NCBI GenBank assembly: GCA_025611195.1
Contig: GCA_025611195.1_4718.1
Reading direction: 5' to 3' (one strand)
DNA length: 64,000 nucleotides
From: a phage
Of this stretch, positions 56,260 to 63,943 are shown piece by piece. Each line of letters opens with the position of its first letter. Positions within the stretch are counted from its first letter, which is position 1. The position numbers and the translations under genes were made by a program. The notes beneath the pieces were generated by a model. That model searched no databases. It was not told the DNA's origin and worked only from the letters and a program-made list of their open reading frames with translations.

Positions 56260-57138
56260 TTAAACGTGGGTCAGGTCACCGTGACGTGAAACGAACTCTG
56301 ATAACGCTCGGGTTGCTTCTTTGGATTCTTCAACCATCGGGAAGTTTGTGGTAACAAGTTCTCGTAGGACAGGAATGATTTCATTATCTTCGAGATCGGA
56401 AGCTAACGCGAATGCGATCAGTTCTTGGGCGTACGCATACGGCTGCTGACGTAATGCGGCAAGCTGATTCCGACACTGCGACATTAGCAGGTCCAGTGGA
56501 ACCGCTATTGTACCCCCTTCATCAATATACTGACCGAATACCGGTGGGAACGCATCGCTGATTACACGAATTCGTCGACGGATGCGATCAGGAATCTGGA
56601 CGTTTTCTTCGTCGGCGATATTTTCGCTGTCTTTCTCCAGCTTCTTGGTTAACACCTGCTGGATACGTGGGAGCAAGCTTGAATGCACGAAACTGATTAA
56701 TGATGCTACGTCCACAGCATCGACACCGTAAATATAACGCGTGCATTCCGCTAGCGTTTCAGCTGCGGTGTAGTCTTCATCTTCAACGATGGCGAGTAGA
56801 AAAGCGGTATCGTCGTGTGTTTCCAGGTCTAATAACGTAGACGTCAACGCATGAAGATATTTCAGGCTATCCAAAGATAGTTGCCCTTCGTTAACTCGGA
56901 TCCCGAAGGCAAGCAGTTGTTGTTTATAAAGTTCGATACATCCGTTTGTTAAAATGATATCGAGTTCGTTTAAATCGTATTGTTCCCCAGCACCTGACAA
57001 CATCGTACTACAAAACGTTTCCAGTTGCTCGCATTTAAAATCTTGGTATAAACGATGCATGCAGTGCTGTAACAGCGTACGCCTTGTTTCAGGGATCTTA
57101 CCTTCTAACAAAGCCAAGACGGAATCAATCATATCCAC
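56260..57138 (-). CDS. hypothetical protein (292 aa)
   Basis: ORF directly upstream (in transcript sense) of RNAP fragment gene. Confidence 0.65.
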   Translation of the reverse strand: MDMIDSVLALLEGKIPETRRTLLQHCMHRLYQDFKCEQLETFCSTMLSGAGEQYDLNELDIILTNGCIELYKQQLLAFGIRVNEGQLSLDSLKYLHALTSTLLDLETHDDTAFLLAIVEDEDYTAAETLAECTRYIYGVDAVDVASLISFVHSSLLPRIQQVLTKKLEKDSENIADEENVQIPDRIRRRIRVISDAFPPVFGQYIDEGGTIAVPLDLLMSQCRNQLAALRQQPYAYAQELIAFALASDLEDNEIIPVLRELVTTNFPMVEESKEATRALSEFVSRHGDLTHV

Positions 57139-57228
57139 TCCGATGCGGTAAATGTCTACTAGCTCTCATAATCTATTGAAGAAACTACCAGCTTACGCCA
57201 ACTTAGATTAATCAGGAGTAACCATCCC

Positions 57229-57702
57229 ATGCCAGTTTCATCCAAACCAAGAAAAAAATCAGTAGGAAAACCTAAAGCTCAGGAAACAACAGCGATTCGT
57301 TGGGACGAGTTACGTGAACCTATCGAAAACTGCGAATTGTTATTAGGCACCCTGGGTGCGGCTATTTACCAGGCAACACAACCTTGCCGTTTACGATTAA
57401 CCCAAAACAAGCGTGATGAGTTCGTTGCGTTATCAACAAGCACGAATAAAGATCTGACCGAACTTCAAACCGAGTTGACGACGATCAAGAACTCCATTAC
57501 GCCGATGTATGGTAAAGAAGTCGACGAACAAAGTATTCTGTTACAGTACAACTACGGGATGTCGTTAATGAACATCCTGGAACGCGCATCCGATATTCTG
57601 CGTCCTGACGTTGCACGCCTGAGCCAACTGCGTGTTGAAGGGATGGAGAACCAGATTCGATTCGCCAACAGTGTTAAATCTCAAGGAGCCACCGAAGCAT
57701 GA
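57229..57702 (+). CDS. hypothetical protein (157 aa)
   Basis: ORF, 4-nt overlap with following gene. Confidence 0.6.
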   Translation: MPVSSKPRKKSVGKPKAQETTAIRWDELREPIENCELLLGTLGAAIYQATQPCRLRLTQNKRDEFVALSTSTNKDLTELQTELTTIKNSITPMYGKEVDEQSILLQYNYGMSLMNILERASDILRPDVARLSQLRVEGMENQIRFANSVKSQGATEA

Positions 57703-59357
57703 GCGAACAAGAAAAAGATGTCGTGACGAATCAGGAAGCCACCGAGCGTTCAGAGTCGTCCGTTGAAACTACGATCCCAGCAAGTGAGGGTAAAGACGAA
57801 GCCGTCGCTACCGAAGGAGAGGTAGCGGCTCCAGAAGCAACCCGTGAAGAAGAACCATCACATCCACCGCTGGTTGATTTCTCGAAGGCGACGATACGTT
57901 TCCAATGCGAAGACATTCGTCCTAAGAGTCCGAAGAAAACAAAACGTCAGCCGTTGGTGTTACCGCTGTATTCTCCGCGTGTACAGACAGCGTATTACAA
58001 GGAATACATCAACGAAGCAATGGATACCGTGCAAGCCATTGTCGCTCAACGCGGTAAGCCTTCGGACGAGCAATTTGATAAATTCAGTAAAGCGGTAGTG
58101 CAATCGGTTGCTGATGGGCAATACCAACCGCGCGGGCCAGCTCATGATCGTGCGTTGGAGCGTAAGGGCAGTCAGTGGACTAACGTACCCGTAGACTCAT
58201 CGGGCGTTGGTCGTGTTATTCCTGGCATCCCACAACCGAACCATATTCCTGATGATGTCGAAGCGCCGCTGACAGGAACCGACGCAATCTATTTTGCAAT
58301 CCGCAATACGAAATCGGGCGCACCTGCGGTAATGCCGTTATGGCATAGCGGTATTAAGCTGCAGTTCAATCCACCGTCAAATGAACGTGTCGCAATTATG
58401 CATGAACGTATTGCACGCGATAAAATCCTGGGTGGGCGTGATAGTACCGGTTTCCTGTTTTCGGCAACCTCGATTATCACCATGAAGCACGCAATCGAAT
58501 TAGCATTAGAATGCTGTTACATGGCCAACGTACCGAACCTGGATATCCAGCGTTTGAAAGACATTATCCCGGTTACCGATGTTCCGGCACTGTTGTTGAA
58601 CGTGCTGGTAACCATGTACCCGTACGGGTATCCTTACGTGCAGACCTGCTATCAGAATCCAGAAACCTGCGACTATCGTGTTGAAGATACCGTAAGCTTT
58701 GCGAAGCTCTATCAAGTTGACAACAGCGCAATTACCAAACGTATGCGACAGATCATGACCGAAGGTCCGGTCATGACCGATGAACTTTTGCGTGAGTATG
58801 CGAACGAGCTGGGCGAAACAAACTCCCGTACGCTGGATCTGTCTGACAACGGTTCGGTTATCATTGAGCTTGAAGTACCGAAGATTTCACGTCAGATCGC
58901 CATGGGCGAACGCTGGTTAAGCGATACACTGGAAGATCTGCGTGATATTCTATCGCGTCCGTCAATGACCGAAGAAGAGCGTGATCGTGTTATTCGTGAG
59001 CGTCAGTTCTATAGCTGGATGCGTCAGTATGATGCGTGGATCAAATCGATGCATGTGTCGGTAAACGGTACCATGCGTCGTGTAAGCGATGCAGATACGG
59101 CAACGGTATTAGCACAGCTGTCTCGTGACAGCGACCTTCGTGAACGCTATATCGATGGGCTGATGCAGTTCATCGGTGATTCGACGATTGCGCTCGCAGC
59201 GATGCCTGCCTGGAAATGTCCGAAATGTAATACCGATATTGCTGACAATCTGCGTGACCAGAAATACTACGATCTGATTGCTTTGGATGTACCCCAGCTT
59301 TTTTTTACCCTAAACTCCGTCCAATCTCTTCAGGAGGGGATGGACGCGGTATTCTAA
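57699..59357 (+). CDS. hypothetical protein (552 aa); 3' end contains U-UUU-UUU slippery heptamer and may be extended by -1 frameshift
   Basis: long ORF; T8 run at 59299-59306 in X-XXY-YYZ register; -1 frame open from the run into 59420-59779. Confidence 0.7.
   Translation: MSEQEKDVVTNQEATERSESSVETTIPASEGKDEAVATEGEVAAPEATREEEPSHPPLVDFSKATIRFQCEDIRPKSPKKTKRQPLVLPLYSPRVQTAYYKEYINEAMDTVQAIVAQRGKPSDEQFDKFSKAVVQSVADGQYQPRGPAHDRALERKGSQWTNVPVDSSGVGRVIPGIPQPNHIPDDVEAPLTGTDAIYFAIRNTKSGAPAVMPLWHSGIKLQFNPPSNERVAIMHERIARDKILGGRDSTGFLFSATSIITMKHAIELALECCYMANVPNLDIQRLKDIIPVTDVPALLLNVLVTMYPYGYPYVQTCYQNPETCDYRVEDTVSFAKLYQVDNSAITKRMRQIMTEGPVMTDELLREYANELGETNSRTLDLSDNGSVIIELEVPKISRQIAMGERWLSDTLEDLRDILSRPSMTEEERDRVIRERQFYSWMRQYDAWIKSMHVSVNGTMRRVSDADTATVLAQLSRDSDLRERYIDGLMQFIGDSTIALAAMPAWKCPKCNTDIADNLRDQKYYDLIALDVPQLFFTLNSVQSLQEGMDAVF
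59299..59306 (+). other. homopolymeric T8 tract / candidate -1 programmed ribosomal frameshift or slippage site
   Basis: 0-frame codons CTT TTT TTT ACC; -1 frame has no stop until 59779. Confidence 0.4.
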
Positions 59358-59419
59358 TCGATCCGCGATACGGGTTACACGACGGACAACTTGTTCGTAA
59401 TGATGAAAAAATCTGGGAA

Positions 59420-59779
59420 TTGCTGTTAGCGCGTAAAGGCGACGGTGGCATGAAGCTGAACATCGAAATGGGTATTGCGTACGACACCATGTTTGGCTTG
59501 TACGATCGTGTTAACGACTGGACGCCGCTGAAATGGGTTGCTCAGCATCCCGCTGAAGATCCCTGGGACAGATTAGGGATTAAGCCCTTAATCGAAGATT
59601 ATGTTCGATTCGGTATTAAAGAGTTCATGACGCTGGATGCGTTTTTACAAGCACCGTATCCTTACGCGCAAACGGTACTCAAAATCGCACAAGACGAACT
59701 GCGGAAACGTAGTGCGGTACTGGACGACGATGAGGACAAGTTACGACGAGAAGAAGAACGTTTACGAAACGGAAAATAA
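59420..59779 (+). CDS. ORF in -1 frame relative to 57699-59357: either frameshift extension of that gene or a separate small gene with weak initiation signals
   Basis: annotated start is TTG; first ATG (59450) lacks a good SD; frame is open upstream across the T8 run. Confidence 0.4.
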   Translation: MLLARKGDGGMKLNIEMGIAYDTMFGLYDRVNDWTPLKWVAQHPAEDPWDRLGIKPLIEDYVRFGIKEFMTLDAFLQAPYPYAQTVLKIAQDELRKRSAVLDDDEDKLRREEERLRNGK

Positions 59780-59780
59780 A

Positions 59781-60290
59781 ATGGCGAGATTTACCAGTTT
59801 GATTGGGTTGGATATTTGGGAAACACCGGCTGACGTTCGGGTTATTCCTGTCAACACCGTCGGTGTGATGGGGCGCGGTCTTGCCAAACAGGCAGCAGAT
59901 CGCGTGCCCGGTCTTCTTGAAGCGTACCGTAAGCAGTGTCAAGATGGGTTTAAGGTGGGTGAAGTCGTATCGTATCAGCATGGCGATAACGATCAACTCA
60001 CCTACGTGTTGTTTCCATCAAAATCGGATTGGCGTGAAAGAACACGACGCGAGTATATCGTTAACGGCTTACTGGCGTTAAAAGCATGGTTATTGGAGCT
60101 TCAGTTCGAAAGAGACGGCTTCTCATACCAGCGTCCGGCTGAACCGCTGATTGTCGCAATTCCTCCGGTCGGTTCTGGTTGCGGTAATATCGGTTACGGA
60201 CAATCTGAAACAATCCAGCCTCAATGGGTACGCGCACAAATCAAACAGTATCTTGCCACCGTACCGAACGTTCATTTCTACTTGTTCTAA
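59781..60290 (+). CDS. macro-domain-like protein (putative ADP-ribose binding/hydrolase, TARG1/DarG-like), ~169 aa
   Basis: VIPVNTVGVMGRGLAKQAADRVPG resembles N-x-x-G-x-M-G-x-G-[IL]-A macro signature; LIVAIPPVGSGCGNIGYG...W..V...I resembles the second glycine-rich loop; ATG at 59781 right after upstream stop. Confidence 0.55.
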   Translation: MARFTSLIGLDIWETPADVRVIPVNTVGVMGRGLAKQAADRVPGLLEAYRKQCQDGFKVGEVVSYQHGDNDQLTYVLFPSKSDWRERTRREYIVNGLLALKAWLLELQFERDGFSYQRPAEPLIVAIPPVGSGCGNIGYGQSETIQPQWVRAQIKQYLATVPNVHFYLF

Positions 60291-60306
60291 TGCACAGATA
60301 GCATAA

Positions 60307-60338
60307 CCCTCCTCCAACCCAACAGGGAAGGAGGAGGG
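60307..60338. terminator. palindromic hairpin element CCCTCCTCC-AACCC-AACA-GGGAA-GGAGGAGGG between convergent genes
   Basis: identical to copy at 38148-38179. Confidence 0.6.
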
Positions 60339-60355
60339 AATATGTTGCTTTGCTA

Positions 60356-60730
60356 TTAATGTTCGTTCCAGATGGCATCTTCCGGTGGAACAATAGGATC
60401 TTTCTTCGGCATTGACGGTACTTCATGACGATGCTTACGGAATTGCCTATCGATAACCTCACGAAGCCGGTACGCATCAACCCACGTTGATTTATTGAAC
60501 AGCTCCAACGTCACAGTTAACCGCGTTCTTGACATTGAATAGCTTTTCTTTGCAATCAAATCGGGATAATTCAGTTGAGCGAACCATGCCCGTATTTGTG
60601 CTTCGGTAAAAGCGATGCTGTAATAACTAAGTTTACCGTCATTAAAATCGTGCGCGTGGGTGTAACGTCCAGCGTAACGCCAAACAAGATGCACATTCAG
60701 ATCTATCCATGGTGGGGTGGTATCAGCCAT
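60356..60730 (-). CDS. hypothetical protein (124 aa)
   Basis: ORF. Confidence 0.55.
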   Translation of the reverse strand: MADTTPPWIDLNVHLVWRYAGRYTHAHDFNDGKLSYYSIAFTEAQIRAWFAQLNYPDLIAKKSYSMSRTRLTVTLELFNKSTWVDAYRLREVIDRQFRKHRHEVPSMPKKDPIVPPEDAIWNEH

Positions 60731-60739
60731 GTGTTACCC

Positions 60740-61309
60740 TCAACGATTTTTCATCACTTTACCCAGGCTTTCGATATTATCCCAAAAGCGATTTTTACTT
60801 GGCGCATCGCCGACGATAACCGACATCAAATCACGACGTTCGCGACTGATGATGCCCTGCGATTTCCAGATCACCATCGTCCAGCAAGCTGCCAGAACGA
60901 ACAGGTGGTTAATACTCGGTTTGGTTTGCGCGATGAATGCAAGCCATGCCCAGATACCGGTATATACTATCGTCACTAAAAAGAGAGAGATTGTTGCAAC
61001 GACAACAACGAAGTTTTGGATGGCTGGCTGATTGGCGTTATCCTGAAAAGCGGTAAGATCGGGAAGATTACCTTCAACGGAACTCGTATCATCGATTTCC
61101 AATTCTTCGATTTCTTTTCGTGTGTCGGGAGCTAATCCGGCATCATCAAGATGCTTCTTTAACCGCTGAATACTTAATCGTTGACCGACAGGGATATTAA
61201 TGTTGTCGTAACTATTAAGCGCATCAACCAGGGAGCGTCCGTCAACGAGAACCAAGCTCGCAGTACCCATCGTCTGCGGTTTTATTTTGTAAAGGTCTTT
61301 TACTTTCAT
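60740..61309 (-). CDS. hypothetical membrane protein (189 aa)
   Basis: two hydrophobic segments (FVVVVATISLFLVTIVYTGIWAWLAFI and LFVLAACWTMVIW). Confidence 0.6.
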   Translation of the reverse strand: MKVKDLYKIKPQTMGTASLVLVDGRSLVDALNSYDNINIPVGQRLSIQRLKKHLDDAGLAPDTRKEIEELEIDDTSSVEGNLPDLTAFQDNANQPAIQNFVVVVATISLFLVTIVYTGIWAWLAFIAQTKPSINHLFVLAACWTMVIWKSQGIISRERRDLMSVIVGDAPSKNRFWDNIESLGKVMKNR

Positions 61310-61330
61310 GTAGGCACCACCTCCAACGTG

Positions 61331-63943
61331 TTATACGTCCGGCGTAAAATCAAAAGGAACGTCCGTACGAATGATATCATAACGTTTTCCTAAGAAATAG
61401 AACTCTTCGGGAACCAGACCGGGAATAATGCTATCGCCGATGAACTGTGGGTATGCCCAGATGTACTGAGTGAGTCCTTCGAACATATCCAGGTTATTTG
61501 CGTGGTTACCCATGATACGTTTCCAGAGTTCGCGTTTATACGGTGTTTTGACATCGAACCCATAAAGCGGTGCGAGGTCTTCGCCAGGAACAAACCCCAG
61601 GTAATAGTGGATCTGACTAACCGGGAACCCAAGCGTATCTCGCGGAATGGTGATCGCTTGCTCAGCCTTGGTGACATGCGTCTCAATAATCCAGTCGTAG
61701 CACTCCGAATAGAACCGATCGAATTTCTCTGGATTATACCACGCTTTGGGAAGATTCAGTTTCTCCGTGAACGCGTTCGACATGATCGTCGGCAAGAACG
61801 GAAGAACGCCGGTTTTGATCTGCGTGTATTTCGATTTTACCCGATTGACCAGATTCCAGCAACTGTATCCTAATTGATCGTTGCAGAACTCAACGTAGAG
61901 ATCGTAATCCCCACCCGATAATGGATTATTAATATCGCCGATGTCTGCCGCATATTTGTTGGGGTATCGGTTATTGAAAGCCAGTTTGGTTTGGTAATCG
62001 TAAATGCACGGTTTATTGTTCTTCGTGTTAATCCACCACCAGGGTTCACCCACCTGCACACAAATGTCTTGGACATGCGGGTAGATGATATCAGCAAACG
62101 CGGTTAACACATCCCCTAACCACGCCATCGCGTGCTGGTTGCATGGCGACAACAACCAAGACGGCGGCGTATATCCGGTTGCTGCTATGTTTCCTTCCCA
62201 ATCCTGCTGCGCCCACTCGAACGGGCATGCCGTACTCATCAATTCGTAACTTAAACTGATGGTGATAGAGAAATGGTGTTTTGCAGCGTATGCGGCGAAA
62301 GCTTCATGCCATGCGATACAGGGTGGGTTGAGTACATCTGTGGTGTTCACCAGTAACTTACTCGCACTTGGTGTCCAGACAGTATCGTAGAAATGCGACA
62401 TTCCAACATAGTGCACTAATTCATCTTGATATCCCGCATAAACCAGGTTCTCAAATACGCGTTCCGGCGTGATATTGTAATGGTCGTCATAAGCGGTTAT
62501 CGCACGAAGCTCGTGTGGTGTACATTGGTGACGATTAACCGTCATTTCCTGATACACCCCATCAATAGGAAGAATCTCGACGGTTAAACCAAGGTCGATC
62601 GGTGTTTCCAGGTAGGTTGTTTCGGTCGCGGCTTCCTTATAATGTCGAGAACTCATGCTGAACATCAACGACGTGACCGATTCAAGGTCGATAGGTTCGT
62701 CAGCATAGAACCCCGCCATCGCGTCGTTGAAATCGATCGTCACGATTGCGCTTGTACCGTCTTCAGAGACATCTGTCGCATATCGGGTTAATGAGATATA
62801 CTGACGACTATCGTCTTTGTGTACAATGGTTAAAACCGGCGGGTTTTCGGTATCGGCAAAGTTACGCTGGTCACCGGTAAACGTGATCTTGGCTTTAAAG
62901 ATCAAACCGAACAACGACGTCATGGGATCATACGCAACACAACCATGATCTAGCGTATCCGTTGTCCGCCATTCTATCCCTACCAACCCGTTAGCGGTAT
63001 GGCATCGCATATACGCATTAAGTGTCATGTCTTTACTAACAACCGCGAAGTTCTCTGTAGATTGACCATTGATAATCCAATACATCGGTTGCCAGAGGTT
63101 ACGCGTGCCTTTTGCGTAGCGGTAGGTTGGTGCGCCTTTAGGGTTGCCGTTATTGAGATGGAATACGGCAGTACCTTGGTAATGATCGTTCGTGTTAATC
63201 GGAACACTGTACGCGTCGCCGAGGTCCGTACGTTCGACCTTCGTGACAGTTGCGTTTTCAAACAGCCCGCGTAGTGTAGGAAGACCAATATCATCAGGCG
63301 CGTTTTCTCGACGAATTGCGTCCGCGATGCGGTGGGCTAGGGCGGGGTAAATGGTCTCACCCTGCTGTAGGTTTGCCAGACCTACAAAGCGATCGGGGTT
63401 GATACCAGCAATCAATAACTCGACATCGCCCTTCGTTCTATCGTCATGGAGGTATTTCAGTCCAGTAAGATCAAGATGTTGAATTAACGACAACAGATTG
63501 TACTTACGGTTTTCAACAGTCAGTGCAAGATCACCTGCCCAAACCAAACTTCCCTCATCCGCCGTTACTCTAACGGATTGGCGGCCTGTGATGGACGTTG
63601 TTGTCGTTTTATTTAATTGTCCTTGTAGGAAGTCGGTTGCGAGGTCAAAGGCAACGCCGTAACGGTCAGCGACCGCCTGCATGATTTCACGTAACTGGGT
63701 ATCTTCTTCAATGATGATCTTGACAGGTATTCCCAAGAACGCCTTGGCGAGGTCTCGCTTAACCATCGAGACGAATACGGATTTGTAATATCGGCCTCCA
63801 TCTTTCCCTTTAAAAAGAATGGAGGTTGTTTCGGGTGACGATAGAACACGTGCAAATTCAACATCGTCGAAAGTAAGAGAAAGTCCGTTTTTCTCGTTGG
63901 TTAATCTTAGTATTTCATTTTGCGCGGTTTCATGTAACTTCAT
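61331..63943 (-). CDS. large hypothetical protein (870 aa), Trp/Tyr-rich, possibly virion-associated
   Basis: long ORF; no motif recognised. Confidence 0.75.
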   Translation of the reverse strand: MKLHETAQNEILRLTNEKNGLSLTFDDVEFARVLSSPETTSILFKGKDGGRYYKSVFVSMVKRDLAKAFLGIPVKIIIEEDTQLREIMQAVADRYGVAFDLATDFLQGQLNKTTTTSITGRQSVRVTADEGSLVWAGDLALTVENRKYNLLSLIQHLDLTGLKYLHDDRTKGDVELLIAGINPDRFVGLANLQQGETIYPALAHRIADAIRRENAPDDIGLPTLRGLFENATVTKVERTDLGDAYSVPINTNDHYQGTAVFHLNNGNPKGAPTYRYAKGTRNLWQPMYWIINGQSTENFAVVSKDMTLNAYMRCHTANGLVGIEWRTTDTLDHGCVAYDPMTSLFGLIFKAKITFTGDQRNFADTENPPVLTIVHKDDSRQYISLTRYATDVSEDGTSAIVTIDFNDAMAGFYADEPIDLESVTSLMFSMSSRHYKEAATETTYLETPIDLGLTVEILPIDGVYQEMTVNRHQCTPHELRAITAYDDHYNITPERVFENLVYAGYQDELVHYVGMSHFYDTVWTPSASKLLVNTTDVLNPPCIAWHEAFAAYAAKHHFSITISLSYELMSTACPFEWAQQDWEGNIAATGYTPPSWLLSPCNQHAMAWLGDVLTAFADIIYPHVQDICVQVGEPWWWINTKNNKPCIYDYQTKLAFNNRYPNKYAADIGDINNPLSGGDYDLYVEFCNDQLGYSCWNLVNRVKSKYTQIKTGVLPFLPTIMSNAFTEKLNLPKAWYNPEKFDRFYSECYDWIIETHVTKAEQAITIPRDTLGFPVSQIHYYLGFVPGEDLAPLYGFDVKTPYKRELWKRIMGNHANNLDMFEGLTQYIWAYPQFIGDSIIPGLVPEEFYFLGKRYDIIRTDVPFDFTPDV

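What the first reader, a model, noticed from the sequence alone, without database searches (positions are those of the whole stretch)
59781..60290. Macro-domain-like (ADP-ribose hydrolase) gene, candidate anti-defence factor
The ~169-aa protein carries VIPVNTVGVMGRGLAKQAADRVPG and later LIVAIPPVGSGCGNIGYG...QPQWVRAQIKQYL. These resemble the two glycine-rich loops of TARG1/OARD1 and DarG-type macro domains (PVN...G-x-M-G-x-G-[IL]-A and P-x-[IV]-G-x-G ... W), as I recall them. Macro domains remove ADP-ribose from proteins or DNA, so a phage copy could reverse ADP-ribosylation-based immunity (for example DarT-like DNA ADP-ribosylation) or process NAD-derived signals. It is the last gene of a plus-strand operon whose preceding gene has a frameshift candidate.
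Basis: partly seen in the sequence, partly recalled or inferred. Interest (0 to 1): 0.75.

Follow-up and report, generated by a model that had tools for sequence, protein, structure and literature searches.

The report
Phage anti-DarT macrodomain (AdfM), already published

Summary
Window 59781-60290 (+) is a 169-aa ORF carrying the quoted motifs. It is the last gene of a plus-strand operon and is followed by a GC-rich hairpin.

- Pfam Macro passes its curated cut-off.
- The best solved-structure relatives, by sequence and by predicted fold, are the DarG macrodomains of T. aquaticus and M. tuberculosis, followed by TARG1.
- The DarG active-site Asn and Lys are present (N25, K81) and invariant in the family.
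- It is a single-domain "orphan antitoxin": it has no DarT-binding domain and no DarT gene lies next to it.

It is not new. The window is about 95% identical to Escherichia phage Goslar, and the protein is 97% identical to Goslar gp83. Morgan et al. (Cell Rep 2026) list gp83 as a member of AdfM, a nucleus-imported enzyme that removes DarT2 ADP-ribose from DNA. They demonstrated this for PhiKZ gp104 and PhiPA3 gp108. The Goslar-type protein itself remains untested, and it is only about 31-34% identical to the tested proteins.

A U_UUU_UUU slippery site in the gp081-like gene (a PhiKZ gp077 homologue) and an open -1 frame running into the next gene recur in all 11 chimallivirus lineages examined.

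The parts
59781..60290 (+). adfM-type gene: a 169-aa single-domain DarG2-like macrodomain protein, orthologue of Goslar gp83 (stop codon included)
   Evidence: ORF and translation. 97% identical to Goslar gp083, YP_009820768.1. Pfam Macro above its cut-off. DarG models match. Fold search puts DarG macrodomains on top.
59847..59888 (+). Glycine-rich loop 1, P23-K36 (PVNTVGVMGRGLAK), including the catalytic-site Asn N25 (codon 59853-59855)
   Evidence: P23, V24, N25, G28, M30, G31, G33, L34 and A35 are invariant in 14 homologues. N25 aligns with T. aquaticus DarG N22 and PhiKZ AdfM N23. In the paper, N23A reduces PhiKZ AdfM activity. The model is confident here (pLDDT blocks 90 and 85).
60021..60023 (+). 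Codon for K81 in FPSKSDW, equivalent to the DarG active-site lysine
   Evidence: K81 and W84 are invariant. K81 aligns with the K of FPTK in T. aquaticus DarG (K80 in the published numbering) and with PhiKZ K78.
60162..60185 (+). Glycine-rich loop 2, P128-G135 (PPVGSGCG)
   Evidence: P128, G131, G133 and G135 are invariant. A lineage-specific insertion follows it (roughly residues 136-147) and is modelled at low confidence: pLDDT is below 50 for residues 136-139 and the 131-140 block averages 56.
60307..60338 (.). GC-rich hairpin (9-bp arms, 14-nt loop) between the convergent genes; probably a bidirectional terminator
   Evidence: Sequence read directly; arm coordinates. Goslar annotates a terminator at the equivalent position. 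The simple terminator scan missed it because it has no T-tract.

Best explanation
The gene encodes an AdfM-type orphan antitoxin, a stand-alone DarG2-like macrodomain made by a Goslar-like nucleus-forming jumbo phage (Chimalliviridae). Proposed mechanism: on infection the host's DarTG2 system releases DarT2, which ADP-ribosylates thymidines in TNTC motifs of single-stranded phage DNA. This impairs DNA replication and genome packaging. AdfM binds the ADP-ribose through its two glycine-rich loops and hydrolyses the thymidine-ADP-ribose bond using the DarG-type active site (N25, K81), restoring unmodified DNA. It lacks DarG's C-terminal DarT-binding domain, so it acts purely enzymatically on the DNA lesion and not by sequestering the toxin. 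By analogy with PhiKZ, PhiPA3 and Asesino AdfM, it is probably imported into the phage nucleus, where the replicating genome lies. Shown here: the fold, the family placement, conservation of the active-site residues, the single-domain architecture, the absence of a DarT gene nearby, and orthology to Goslar gp83. Inferred from published work on 31-34% identical homologues: the substrate (DarT2-modified ssDNA), the protective phenotype and the nuclear localisation.
For: Macro fold: Pfam PF01661 scores 25.9 bits against a cut-off of 22; the AF2 model has pLDDT 87. DarG-type: the best PDB matches by sequence are 5M31/5M3E (5.7e-15), 5M3I (3.9e-11) and 7OMU (1e-4). The best matches by fold are the same four entries, ahead of TARG1, Poa1p and viral macrodomains. 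PADLOC DarG gives 4.1e-22 and NCBIfam antitoxin_DarG gives 8.4e-23. Active site: N25 and K81 are invariant among 14 homologues and align with T. aquaticus DarG N22/K80 and PhiKZ AdfM N23/K78 (residue roles from PMC13309987 Fig. 1 legend). Orphan architecture: the DarG profiles match only over positions 7-146 of 338 and 8-143 of 329. None of the five neighbouring ORFs scanned has a DarT or other toxin hit. Identity: the locus is 95.1% identical at the nucleotide level to phage Goslar and the protein is 97% identical to Goslar gp83, which PMC13309987 lists among the chimallivirus AdfM proteins. Function of the family: PhiKZ AdfM removes ADP-ribose from DarT2-modified DNA in vitro, rescues DarT2 toxicity, localises to the phage nucleus, and its deletion sensitises PhiKZ and PhiPA3 to DarTG2 by 3-6 logs. 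DarTG2 works as a phage defence in E. coli, and the T4 macrodomain Tk.4 counters it. The gene order 157 aa / ~550 aa / ~110-120 aa / macro is conserved in the relatives whose contigs span the region, L005, L007 and L004 (88%, 84% and 47% AdfM identity); the short contig L008 shows only the macro gene and its two neighbours.
Against: No experiment exists for the Goslar-type protein; it appears in the paper only in an alignment. It is only 30-34% identical to the tested PhiKZ and PhiPA3 proteins. It is no closer to them (79-83 bits) than to uncharacterised single-domain macro proteins from metagenomes (81-82 bits). It also sits at a different genomic position: the neighbouring genes share no similarity with those of PhiPA3. 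It may therefore be an independent capture. Two lineage-specific insertions (roughly residues 108-122 and 136-147) flank the second ligand loop and are modelled with low confidence, so substrate specificity could differ.
Confidence: 0.8

Rival explanations
1. It is a de-ADP-ribosylase with a different or broader substrate than DarT2-modified thymidine. Candidates are ADP-ribosylated protein carboxylates (as for TARG1), ADP-ribosylated RNA, or DNA/RNA ends. On this reading it would counter another ADP-ribosylating defence, or reverse modifications made by host or phage ADP-ribosyltransferases.
For: TARG1 is the next-best structural neighbour (E about 1e-9, TM 0.68) and shares the catalytic-lysine chemistry (my knowledge of the TARG1/DarG class). 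The Goslar-type protein is as distant from tested AdfM as from uncharacterised macrodomains. It carries insertions next to loop 2.
Against: By sequence, profile and fold the DarG macrodomains rank clearly above TARG1. The authors of PMC13309987 place Goslar gp83 with the DarG2-like AdfM proteins. Every tested member of this phage/DarG group acts on DarT2-modified DNA.
Confidence: 0.12
2. It is a metabolite-processing macro enzyme, either an ADP-ribose-1''-phosphate phosphatase or an O-acetyl-ADP-ribose deacetylase of the Poa1p/YmdB type. Legacy database labels suggest this: 'phosphatase', 'Appr-1-p processing', 'Macro_Poa1p_like', 'regulator of RNase III'.
For: phrog_335 is labelled 'phosphatase'. 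Goslar's record cites CDD Macro_Poa1p_like. JGI names some homologues O-acetyl-ADP-ribose deacetylase. Poa1p structures are retrieved (E about 1e-6).
Against: Poa1p ranks only from position 22, with 16% identity and rmsd 5.0-5.8 A, against 2.1-3.2 A and 26-29% identity for the three stand-alone DarG macrodomain structures 5M3E, 5M31 and 5M3I. The labels are generic transfers that predate the discovery of DarG and AdfM. The DarG-type catalytic lysine is invariant.
Confidence: 0.05
3. It is a catalytically inert ADP-ribose-binding module, acting as a reader or a sponge for ADP-ribose-derived immune signals and not as a hydrolase.
For: Some macro domains are binders only (general knowledge). Loop 2 is modelled at low confidence.
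Against: Both active-site residues and all loop glycines are invariant. Homologues are demonstrably catalytic.
Confidence: 0.03

Closest known systems
Goslar gp83 (YP_009820768.1), listed as a chimallivirus AdfM in Morgan et al., Cell Rep 2026 (PMC13309987)
   Same: Orthologue. It is 97% identical, with 5 substitutions (D40E, Q54R, K58T, D69E, Q117H; window residue first), none at a conserved site. Gene order and downstream terminator are the same.
   Different: RefSeq models Goslar gp083 as 186 aa from an upstream ATG that overlaps gp082. Comparative evidence favours the 169-aa form. Neither protein has been assayed.
AdfM of PhiKZ (gp104) and PhiPA3 (gp108), the experimentally characterised members
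   Same: Single-domain DarG2-like macrodomain of about 160 aa encoded by a nucleus-forming jumbo phage. The N-terminus (MAxF...) and the catalytic Asn/Lys are shared, and the alignment is full-length.
   Different: Only 30-34% identity. The genomic neighbourhood differs. The Goslar type has two insertions, at roughly residues 108-122 and 136-147. Activity, nuclear import and protection have been shown only for the Pseudomonas phage proteins (localisation also for Asesino).
DarG2 antitoxin macrodomain (T. aquaticus 5M31/5M3E; M. tuberculosis 5M3I; Thermosipho DarTG 7OMU)
   Same: Closest solved structures by sequence and by fold; same active-site N and K.
   Different: DarG is about 330-340 aa with a C-terminal DarT-binding domain and is encoded next to darT. 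The phage protein has only the macro half, scores 81 bits against a 250-bit equivalog cut-off, and has no darT neighbour.
T4 Tk.4, also named AdfM (HIDEN-SEQ preprint, bioRxiv 10.1101/2025.11.20.689424)
   Same: A phage macrodomain that is conditionally essential against DarTG2 in E. coli. This is the same concept in the same host species.
   Different: It belongs to a different phage family with no phage nucleus. I did not compare the two sequences directly.
TARG1/OARD1 (human terminal ADP-ribose glycohydrolase, 4J5S etc.)
   Same: Second-best structural class, the same macrodomain subclass with a catalytic lysine.
   Different: 16-20% identity. It is a eukaryotic enzyme known chiefly for protein substrates (my knowledge). 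It ranks below every DarG entry.
AdfN (T4 30.3), a NADAR-domain orphan antitoxin against DarTG1
   Same: The same strategy: the phage carries the enzymatic half of the host antitoxin to erase DarT marks from its DNA.
   Different: It has an unrelated fold (NADAR), acts on guanine ADP-ribosylation by DarT1, and does not act against DarTG2.

Membership tests
Macro domain (Pfam PF01661) | Profile match above the curated gathering score | tested here: met
   25.9 bits against a cut-off of 22; residues 23-141 match profile positions 3-113 of 118.
Macro domain (Pfam PF01661) | Mixed beta-sheet/alpha-helix macro fold with two glycine-rich ligand loops | tested here: met
   AF2 model with pLDDT 87 and pTM 0.85, built of alternating strands and helices. 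157 PDB matches at E<=1e-3, and the listed top 50 are macro domains or designed proteins with a similar fold. The loop glycines are invariant. Loop 2 is modelled at lower confidence (block mean 56).
DarG/TARG1-type macrodomain subclass | Active-site lysine (T. aquaticus DarG K80) and asparagine (N22) | tested here: met
   K81 and N25 align with these residues and are invariant in 14 homologues and in the 5-way alignment with PhiKZ, PhiPA3 and T. aquaticus DarG. Residue roles are from PMC13309987.
DarG/TARG1-type macrodomain subclass | Closest solved relatives are DarG macrodomains and not other macro classes | tested here: met
   Sequence search: 5M31, 5M3I and 7OMU are the only three PDB hits below E=0.001. 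Fold search: ranks 1-4 are DarG, ranks 5-9 TARG1, Poa1p from rank 22, alphavirus nsP3 from rank 24.
DarG antitoxin of a DarTG toxin-antitoxin system (NCBIfam NF048014 equivalog) | Full-length architecture with a C-terminal DarT-binding domain; score above the equivalog cut-off | tested here: not met
   81.2 bits against a cut-off of 250. Only profile positions 7-146 of 338 are matched; PADLOC matches positions 8-143 of 329. The protein ends at residue 169.
DarG antitoxin of a DarTG toxin-antitoxin system (NCBIfam NF048014 equivalog) | Encoded next to a darT toxin gene | tested here: not met
   The three upstream and two downstream ORFs have no significant Pfam hits; nothing reaches a curated cut-off and DarT is absent. 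Only the macro protein itself was scanned against PADLOC. The locus is a phage structural/unknown-function operon.
AdfM (chimallivirus anti-DarT factor macro; PMC13309987) | Homologue of PhiKZ gp104 / PhiPA3 gp108, single-domain, encoded by a chimallivirus | tested here: met
   tblastn to PhiPA3 gp108 gives 1e-14 over 96% of the query; phiKZ-type phages give 2e-14 to 9e-14. 97% identical to Goslar gp83, which the paper lists by accession. The locus is 95% identical to Goslar.
AdfM (chimallivirus anti-DarT factor macro; PMC13309987) | Removes DarT2-installed ADP-ribose from ssDNA; neutralises DarT2 toxicity; protects the phage from DarTG2 | not testable with these tools
   Shown for PhiKZ gp104 and, by deletion phenotype, for PhiPA3 gp108. 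No data exist for the Goslar-type protein.
AdfM (chimallivirus anti-DarT factor macro; PMC13309987) | Imported into the phage nucleus (PicA-dependent) | not testable with these tools
   Shown by GFP fusions for the Asesino, PhiKZ and PhiPA3 proteins. No import signal is defined that could be searched for.
Poa1p/YmdB-type metabolite-processing macro enzymes | Closest similarity to Poa1p/YmdB | tested here: not met
   Poa1p appears only at ranks 22-34, with rmsd 5.0-5.8 A and 16% identity. No YmdB or Poa1p chain is among the PDB sequence hits.

The most novel reading that the evidence does not exclude
The Goslar-type macrodomain may be an independent capture of a DarG-like domain and not a vertical orthologue of PhiKZ AdfM. 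It is not syntenic with the PhiKZ gene, and it is as distant from PhiKZ AdfM as from unrelated metagenomic macrodomains. Its two lineage-specific insertions beside the second ligand loop could give it a different or wider substrate range, for example other ADP-ribosylated nucleic acids, or they could serve as its nuclear-import determinant.
Probability: 0.12. Interest if true: 0.5.

Novelty: already known. Interest (0 to 1): 0.2.

Why it matters
For the finding itself, the value is confirmatory. It shows that a sequence-only reading correctly recovered a counter-defence gene that was characterised experimentally in 2025-2026. It also corrects the start codon of the RefSeq Goslar model. The E. 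coli/Goslar branch of AdfM has still not been assayed, so a direct test against E. coli DarTG2 would extend the published Pseudomonas result to a second host and a divergent subclade.

The more valuable by-product is the upstream gene pair. Comparative evidence points to a -1 frameshift, programmed ribosomal or transcriptional, that is conserved across the nucleus-forming jumbo phages. I found no report of it. If it is real, current annotations, including phiKZ's, miss a roughly 690-aa fusion protein of a widely conserved gene family of unknown function (homologues in 160 phage records).

Tried and rejected
1. Synteny with PhiPA3/phiKZ around adfM. The neighbours (PhiPA3 gp106, gp107) show no similarity to the window's upstream genes, so genomic context gives no extra support for orthology with the tested proteins.

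2. Simple sigma-70 promoter and intrinsic-terminator scan of 57000-61400. It gave nothing useful: 1 promoter-like site against 7.5 expected, and 0 terminators. The hairpin after the gene has no T-tract, and these phages use their own RNA polymerases.

3. The weak Pfam DUF7242 hit (17.9 bits, below its cut-off of 27). Disregarded.

4. For the frameshift side issue:
- I tested whether the phrog_12109 profile would extend into the -1-frame extension. It did not, which is neutral.
- RNAalifold finds a stem 9 nt downstream of the slippery site in the close Goslar group, but it is broken in the 47% relative, so no conserved stimulatory structure is established.
- PDB sequence searches with the 552-aa protein and with the -1-frame product found nothing.
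- The Goslar virion-structure preprint does not mention gp81-gp83 or a frameshift.

5. A true DarG antitoxin of a phage-borne DarTG system was considered and rejected. There is no C-terminal domain and no darT gene.

Full report
**1. Observation**

Window 59781-60290 (+) is an ATG-initiated ORF of 169 codons plus a stop. A longer in-frame ORF (217 aa, from 59637) exists, and RefSeq models the Goslar orthologue as 186 aa. In three relatives (L007, L004, L008), however, an in-frame stop lies 1, 2 or 6 codons upstream of the equivalent ATG. The N-terminus MA(R/N/E)F is also shared with PhiKZ and PhiPA3. The 169-aa form is therefore the real one.

The gene starts 1 nt after the stop of the preceding ORF. 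It is the last gene of a plus-strand run (57229-60290). A GC-rich hairpin follows (60307-60315 / 60330-60338), and then convergent minus-strand genes. Goslar annotates a terminator at the equivalent position.

**2. What it is**

Sequence and profile evidence:
- Pfam Macro scores 25.9 bits against a gathering score of 22.
- phrog_335 gives 1e-18.
- The PADLOC DarG model gives 4.1e-22.
- The NCBIfam antitoxin_DarG model gives 8.4e-23, or 81 bits.
- Only three PDB chains match by sequence below E=0.001, and all three contain DarG macrodomains. They are T. aquaticus 5M31/5M3E (5.7e-15), M. tuberculosis 5M3I (3.9e-11) and Thermosipho DarTG 7OMU (1e-4) (descriptions).

Structural evidence: an AlphaFold2 model built on a 14-sequence alignment is confident (mean pLDDT 87, pTM 0.85). 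Foldseek against the PDB returns the same four DarG entries at ranks 1-4 (E 7e-14 to 2e-11). For the three stand-alone macrodomain structures, rmsd is 2.1-3.2 A and TM is up to 0.88 on the target. TARG1 follows (E about 1e-9). Poa1p and alphavirus nsP3 macrodomains come well behind.

Active site: N25 and K81 are invariant in the homologue alignment, together with G28, M30, G31, G33, W84, P128, G131, G133 and G135. N25 and K81 align with T. aquaticus DarG N22/K80 and PhiKZ AdfM N23/K78. The published work designates these as the active-site residues.

Architecture: the DarG profiles match only over their N-terminal macro halves (positions 7-146 of 338 and 8-143 of 329), and the NCBIfam score is far below the 250-bit equivalog cut-off. 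The protein therefore lacks DarG's DarT-binding domain. None of the five flanking ORFs has a DarT or other significant Pfam hit. It is a stand-alone "orphan antitoxin".

**3. Where it comes from**

The 4.4 kb around the gene is 95.1% identical to Escherichia phage vB_EcoM_Goslar, a chimallivirus. The protein is 97% identical to Goslar gp083, which RefSeq already labels "macro domain-containing protein". It differs at five positions (D40E, Q54R, K58T, D69E, Q117H), none of them conserved.

Homologues occur in 167 phage records, mostly nucleus-forming jumbo phages: PhiPA3 gp108, phiKZ-type phages, 201phi2-1, Psa21 and SPN3US-like phages. Metagenomic relatives at 88%, 84% and 47% identity whose contigs span the region (L005, L007, L004) keep the same four-gene order. 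The short contig L008 shows only the macro gene and its two neighbours.

**4. What is already known**

[quoted passage not shown] They report the following:
- PhiKZ gp104 removes DarT2-installed ADP-ribose from a TNTC ssDNA substrate in vitro, and the N23A mutation reduces this activity.
- It fully rescues DarT2 toxicity in E. coli.
- AdfM from PhiKZ, PhiPA3 and Asesino localises to the phage nucleus.
- Deleting it sensitises PhiKZ and PhiPA3 to two cloned DarTG2 systems by 3-6 logs, and modified phage DNA accumulates.
- Goslar gp83 (YP_009820768.1) is named in their Figure 1 alignment. Goslar appears nowhere else in the main text, so it was not assayed.

Independently, the HIDEN-SEQ preprint found that the T4 macrodomain Tk.4, which it also named AdfM, is conditionally essential against DarTG2 in E. 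coli.

**5. Mechanism and residual uncertainty**

The best explanation (confidence 0.8) is enzymatic reversal of DarT2's thymidine ADP-ribosylation on phage ssDNA, probably inside the phage nucleus, with no toxin binding.

Three things limit the confidence:
- The Goslar-type protein is only 30-34% identical to the tested proteins.
- It is no closer to them (79-83 bits) than to uncharacterised single-domain macrodomains from metagenomes (81-82 bits).
- It sits in a different neighbourhood and carries two insertions (roughly residues 108-122 and 136-147) that are modelled at low confidence next to loop 2.

The rivals are ranked well below: a different ADP-ribosylated substrate (0.12), a metabolite-processing enzyme as legacy labels suggest (0.05), and an inert binder (0.03).

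**6. Side finding: the "frameshift candidate" in the preceding genes**

The gp081-like ORF (57699-59357, 552 aa) is a homologue of phiKZ gp077 and PhiPA3 gp074, and its family has hits in 160 phage records. Eighteen codons before its stop it contains CAG CTT TTT TTT ACC (59295-59309), which forms a U_UUU_UUU heptamer at 59300-59306.

*Evidence within the Goslar group*
- The next gene (Goslar gp082) lies in the -1 frame. That frame is open from 59258 through the slippery site and across the 92-nt "intergenic" gap into the gene.
- The 24-nt block around the T-run is identical even in the 47%-identity relative L004. There the -1 frame opens only four codons before the T-run.
- Among three diverged relatives, the "intergenic" stretch 59358-59449 shows 10-12 synonymous against 3-4 non-synonymous codon changes in the -1 frame. 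In the other two frames it shows 0-3 synonymous against 11-14 non-synonymous. So the stretch is translated.
- No start codon is conserved in that frame. The TTG at 59420 is CTG in L007, and the ATG at 59450 is ACC in L004.

*Evidence across chimalliviruses*

I surveyed 11 lineages: the window, L004, Noxifer, phiKZ, PhiPA3, Special G, RP12, Machina, Vibrio phage C-ZP2022, RSL2 and Eowyn.
- The downstream gene is in the -1 frame in 11 of 11.
- That frame is open back past the upstream stop, to the conserved Phe-Phe codons, in 11 of 11.
- A canonical X_XXY_YYZ heptamer sits at those codons in 9 of 11.
- The annotated starts are inconsistent (ATG, TTG, GTG and CTG, with gaps from -1 to 218 nt).
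- The first Phe codon at the site is TTT in 11 of 11, although TTT makes up only 27% of the other Phe codons in these genes. The naive probability is about 6e-7.
- In phiKZ the -1 frame runs from just before ACT TTT TTT ACT through 218 nt of unannotated sequence into PHIKZ076.4. Its translation is homologous to Noxifer's upstream of both annotated starts.

*Interpretation*

The simplest reading is a conserved -1 programmed frameshift. Ribosomal frameshifting is one possible mechanism. Transcriptional slippage that adds a U is the other, and these data cannot separate them. In this window it would produce a 552-aa product and a predicted 693-aa fusion (536 + 157 aa).

I found no report of this in searches for Goslar, phiKZ or Chimalliviridae together with frameshift terms, or in the Goslar virion-structure preprint. 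The searchable library is incomplete, however.

**7. Verdict**

The novelty rating is "already known", because this is AdfM and Goslar gp83 is explicitly listed in the paper. Interest in the finding itself is low (0.2). The upstream conserved frameshift deserves its own follow-up.

Noticed in passing
window 59295-59779 (+): slippery T-run 59299-59306; -1 frame 59306-59779; upstream gene 57699-59357: Likely -1 frameshift fusing the 552-aa gp081-like protein (phiKZ gp077 family) to the gp082-like ORF, giving a predicted 693-aa product. The evidence: a U_UUU_UUU heptamer whose 24-nt context is identical in a 47%-identity relative; the -1 frame is open from just upstream of the heptamer; the 'intergenic' 59358-59449 is under purifying selection in the -1 frame only (10-12 synonymous against 3-4 non-synonymous changes); and no start codon is conserved.
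   Followed up: yes
L010 (phiKZ gp077/PHIKZ076.4), L009 (Noxifer gp073/gp072), L011 (PhiPA3 gp074/gp073), L012-L017, L004: The same geometry recurs in all 11 chimallivirus lineages checked. The downstream gene is in the -1 frame in 11/11. That frame is open back to a conserved Phe-Phe site in 11/11. A canonical heptamer is present in 9/11. The first Phe codon is TTT in 11/11 against a 27% background. In phiKZ, 218 nt annotated as intergenic is open and homologous to Noxifer's -1 frame. I found no report of this.
   Followed up: yes
L001 8737-9297 (Goslar gp083, RefSeq) against window 59781: The RefSeq Goslar gp083 model (186 aa, overlapping gp082 by 50 nt) probably starts 17 codons too early. 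Relatives have in-frame stops 1-6 codons upstream of the MA(R/N)F ATG.
   Followed up: yes
window 59781-60287 protein, residues ~108-122 and ~136-147: Two insertions specific to the Goslar clade, relative to PhiKZ/PhiPA3 AdfM and the bacterial homologues. They flank the second glycine-rich loop and are modelled at low confidence (pLDDT block means 64 and 56). Their role is unknown.
   Followed up: partly
P0001: A 99%-identical copy of the protein (the 217-aa maximal ORF) is deposited at NCBI as a hypothetical protein of Salmonella enterica serovar Muenchen, on an 809-bp contig. Near-identical copies stand for hundreds of member sequences in the Logan run assemblies. Goslar-like phages therefore seem common in enterobacterial sequencing data, possibly as contaminants or carried phage.
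   Followed up: no
window 61331-63943 (-), 870 aa: Orthologue of Goslar gp86. The Goslar virion-structure preprint describes gp86 as a DUF7941-module protein with predicted carbohydrate-binding or glycoside-hydrolase domains, a candidate host-recognition protein.
   Followed up: no
window 59331-59342: A strong Shine-Dalgarno-like AGGAGGGG followed by an ATG lies inside the 3' end of the 552-aa gene, in the 0 frame. It would encode only MDAVF*. It sits between the slippery site and the stop, and its significance, if any, is unknown. It could also form part of a stimulatory element such as an internal SD.
   Followed up: no
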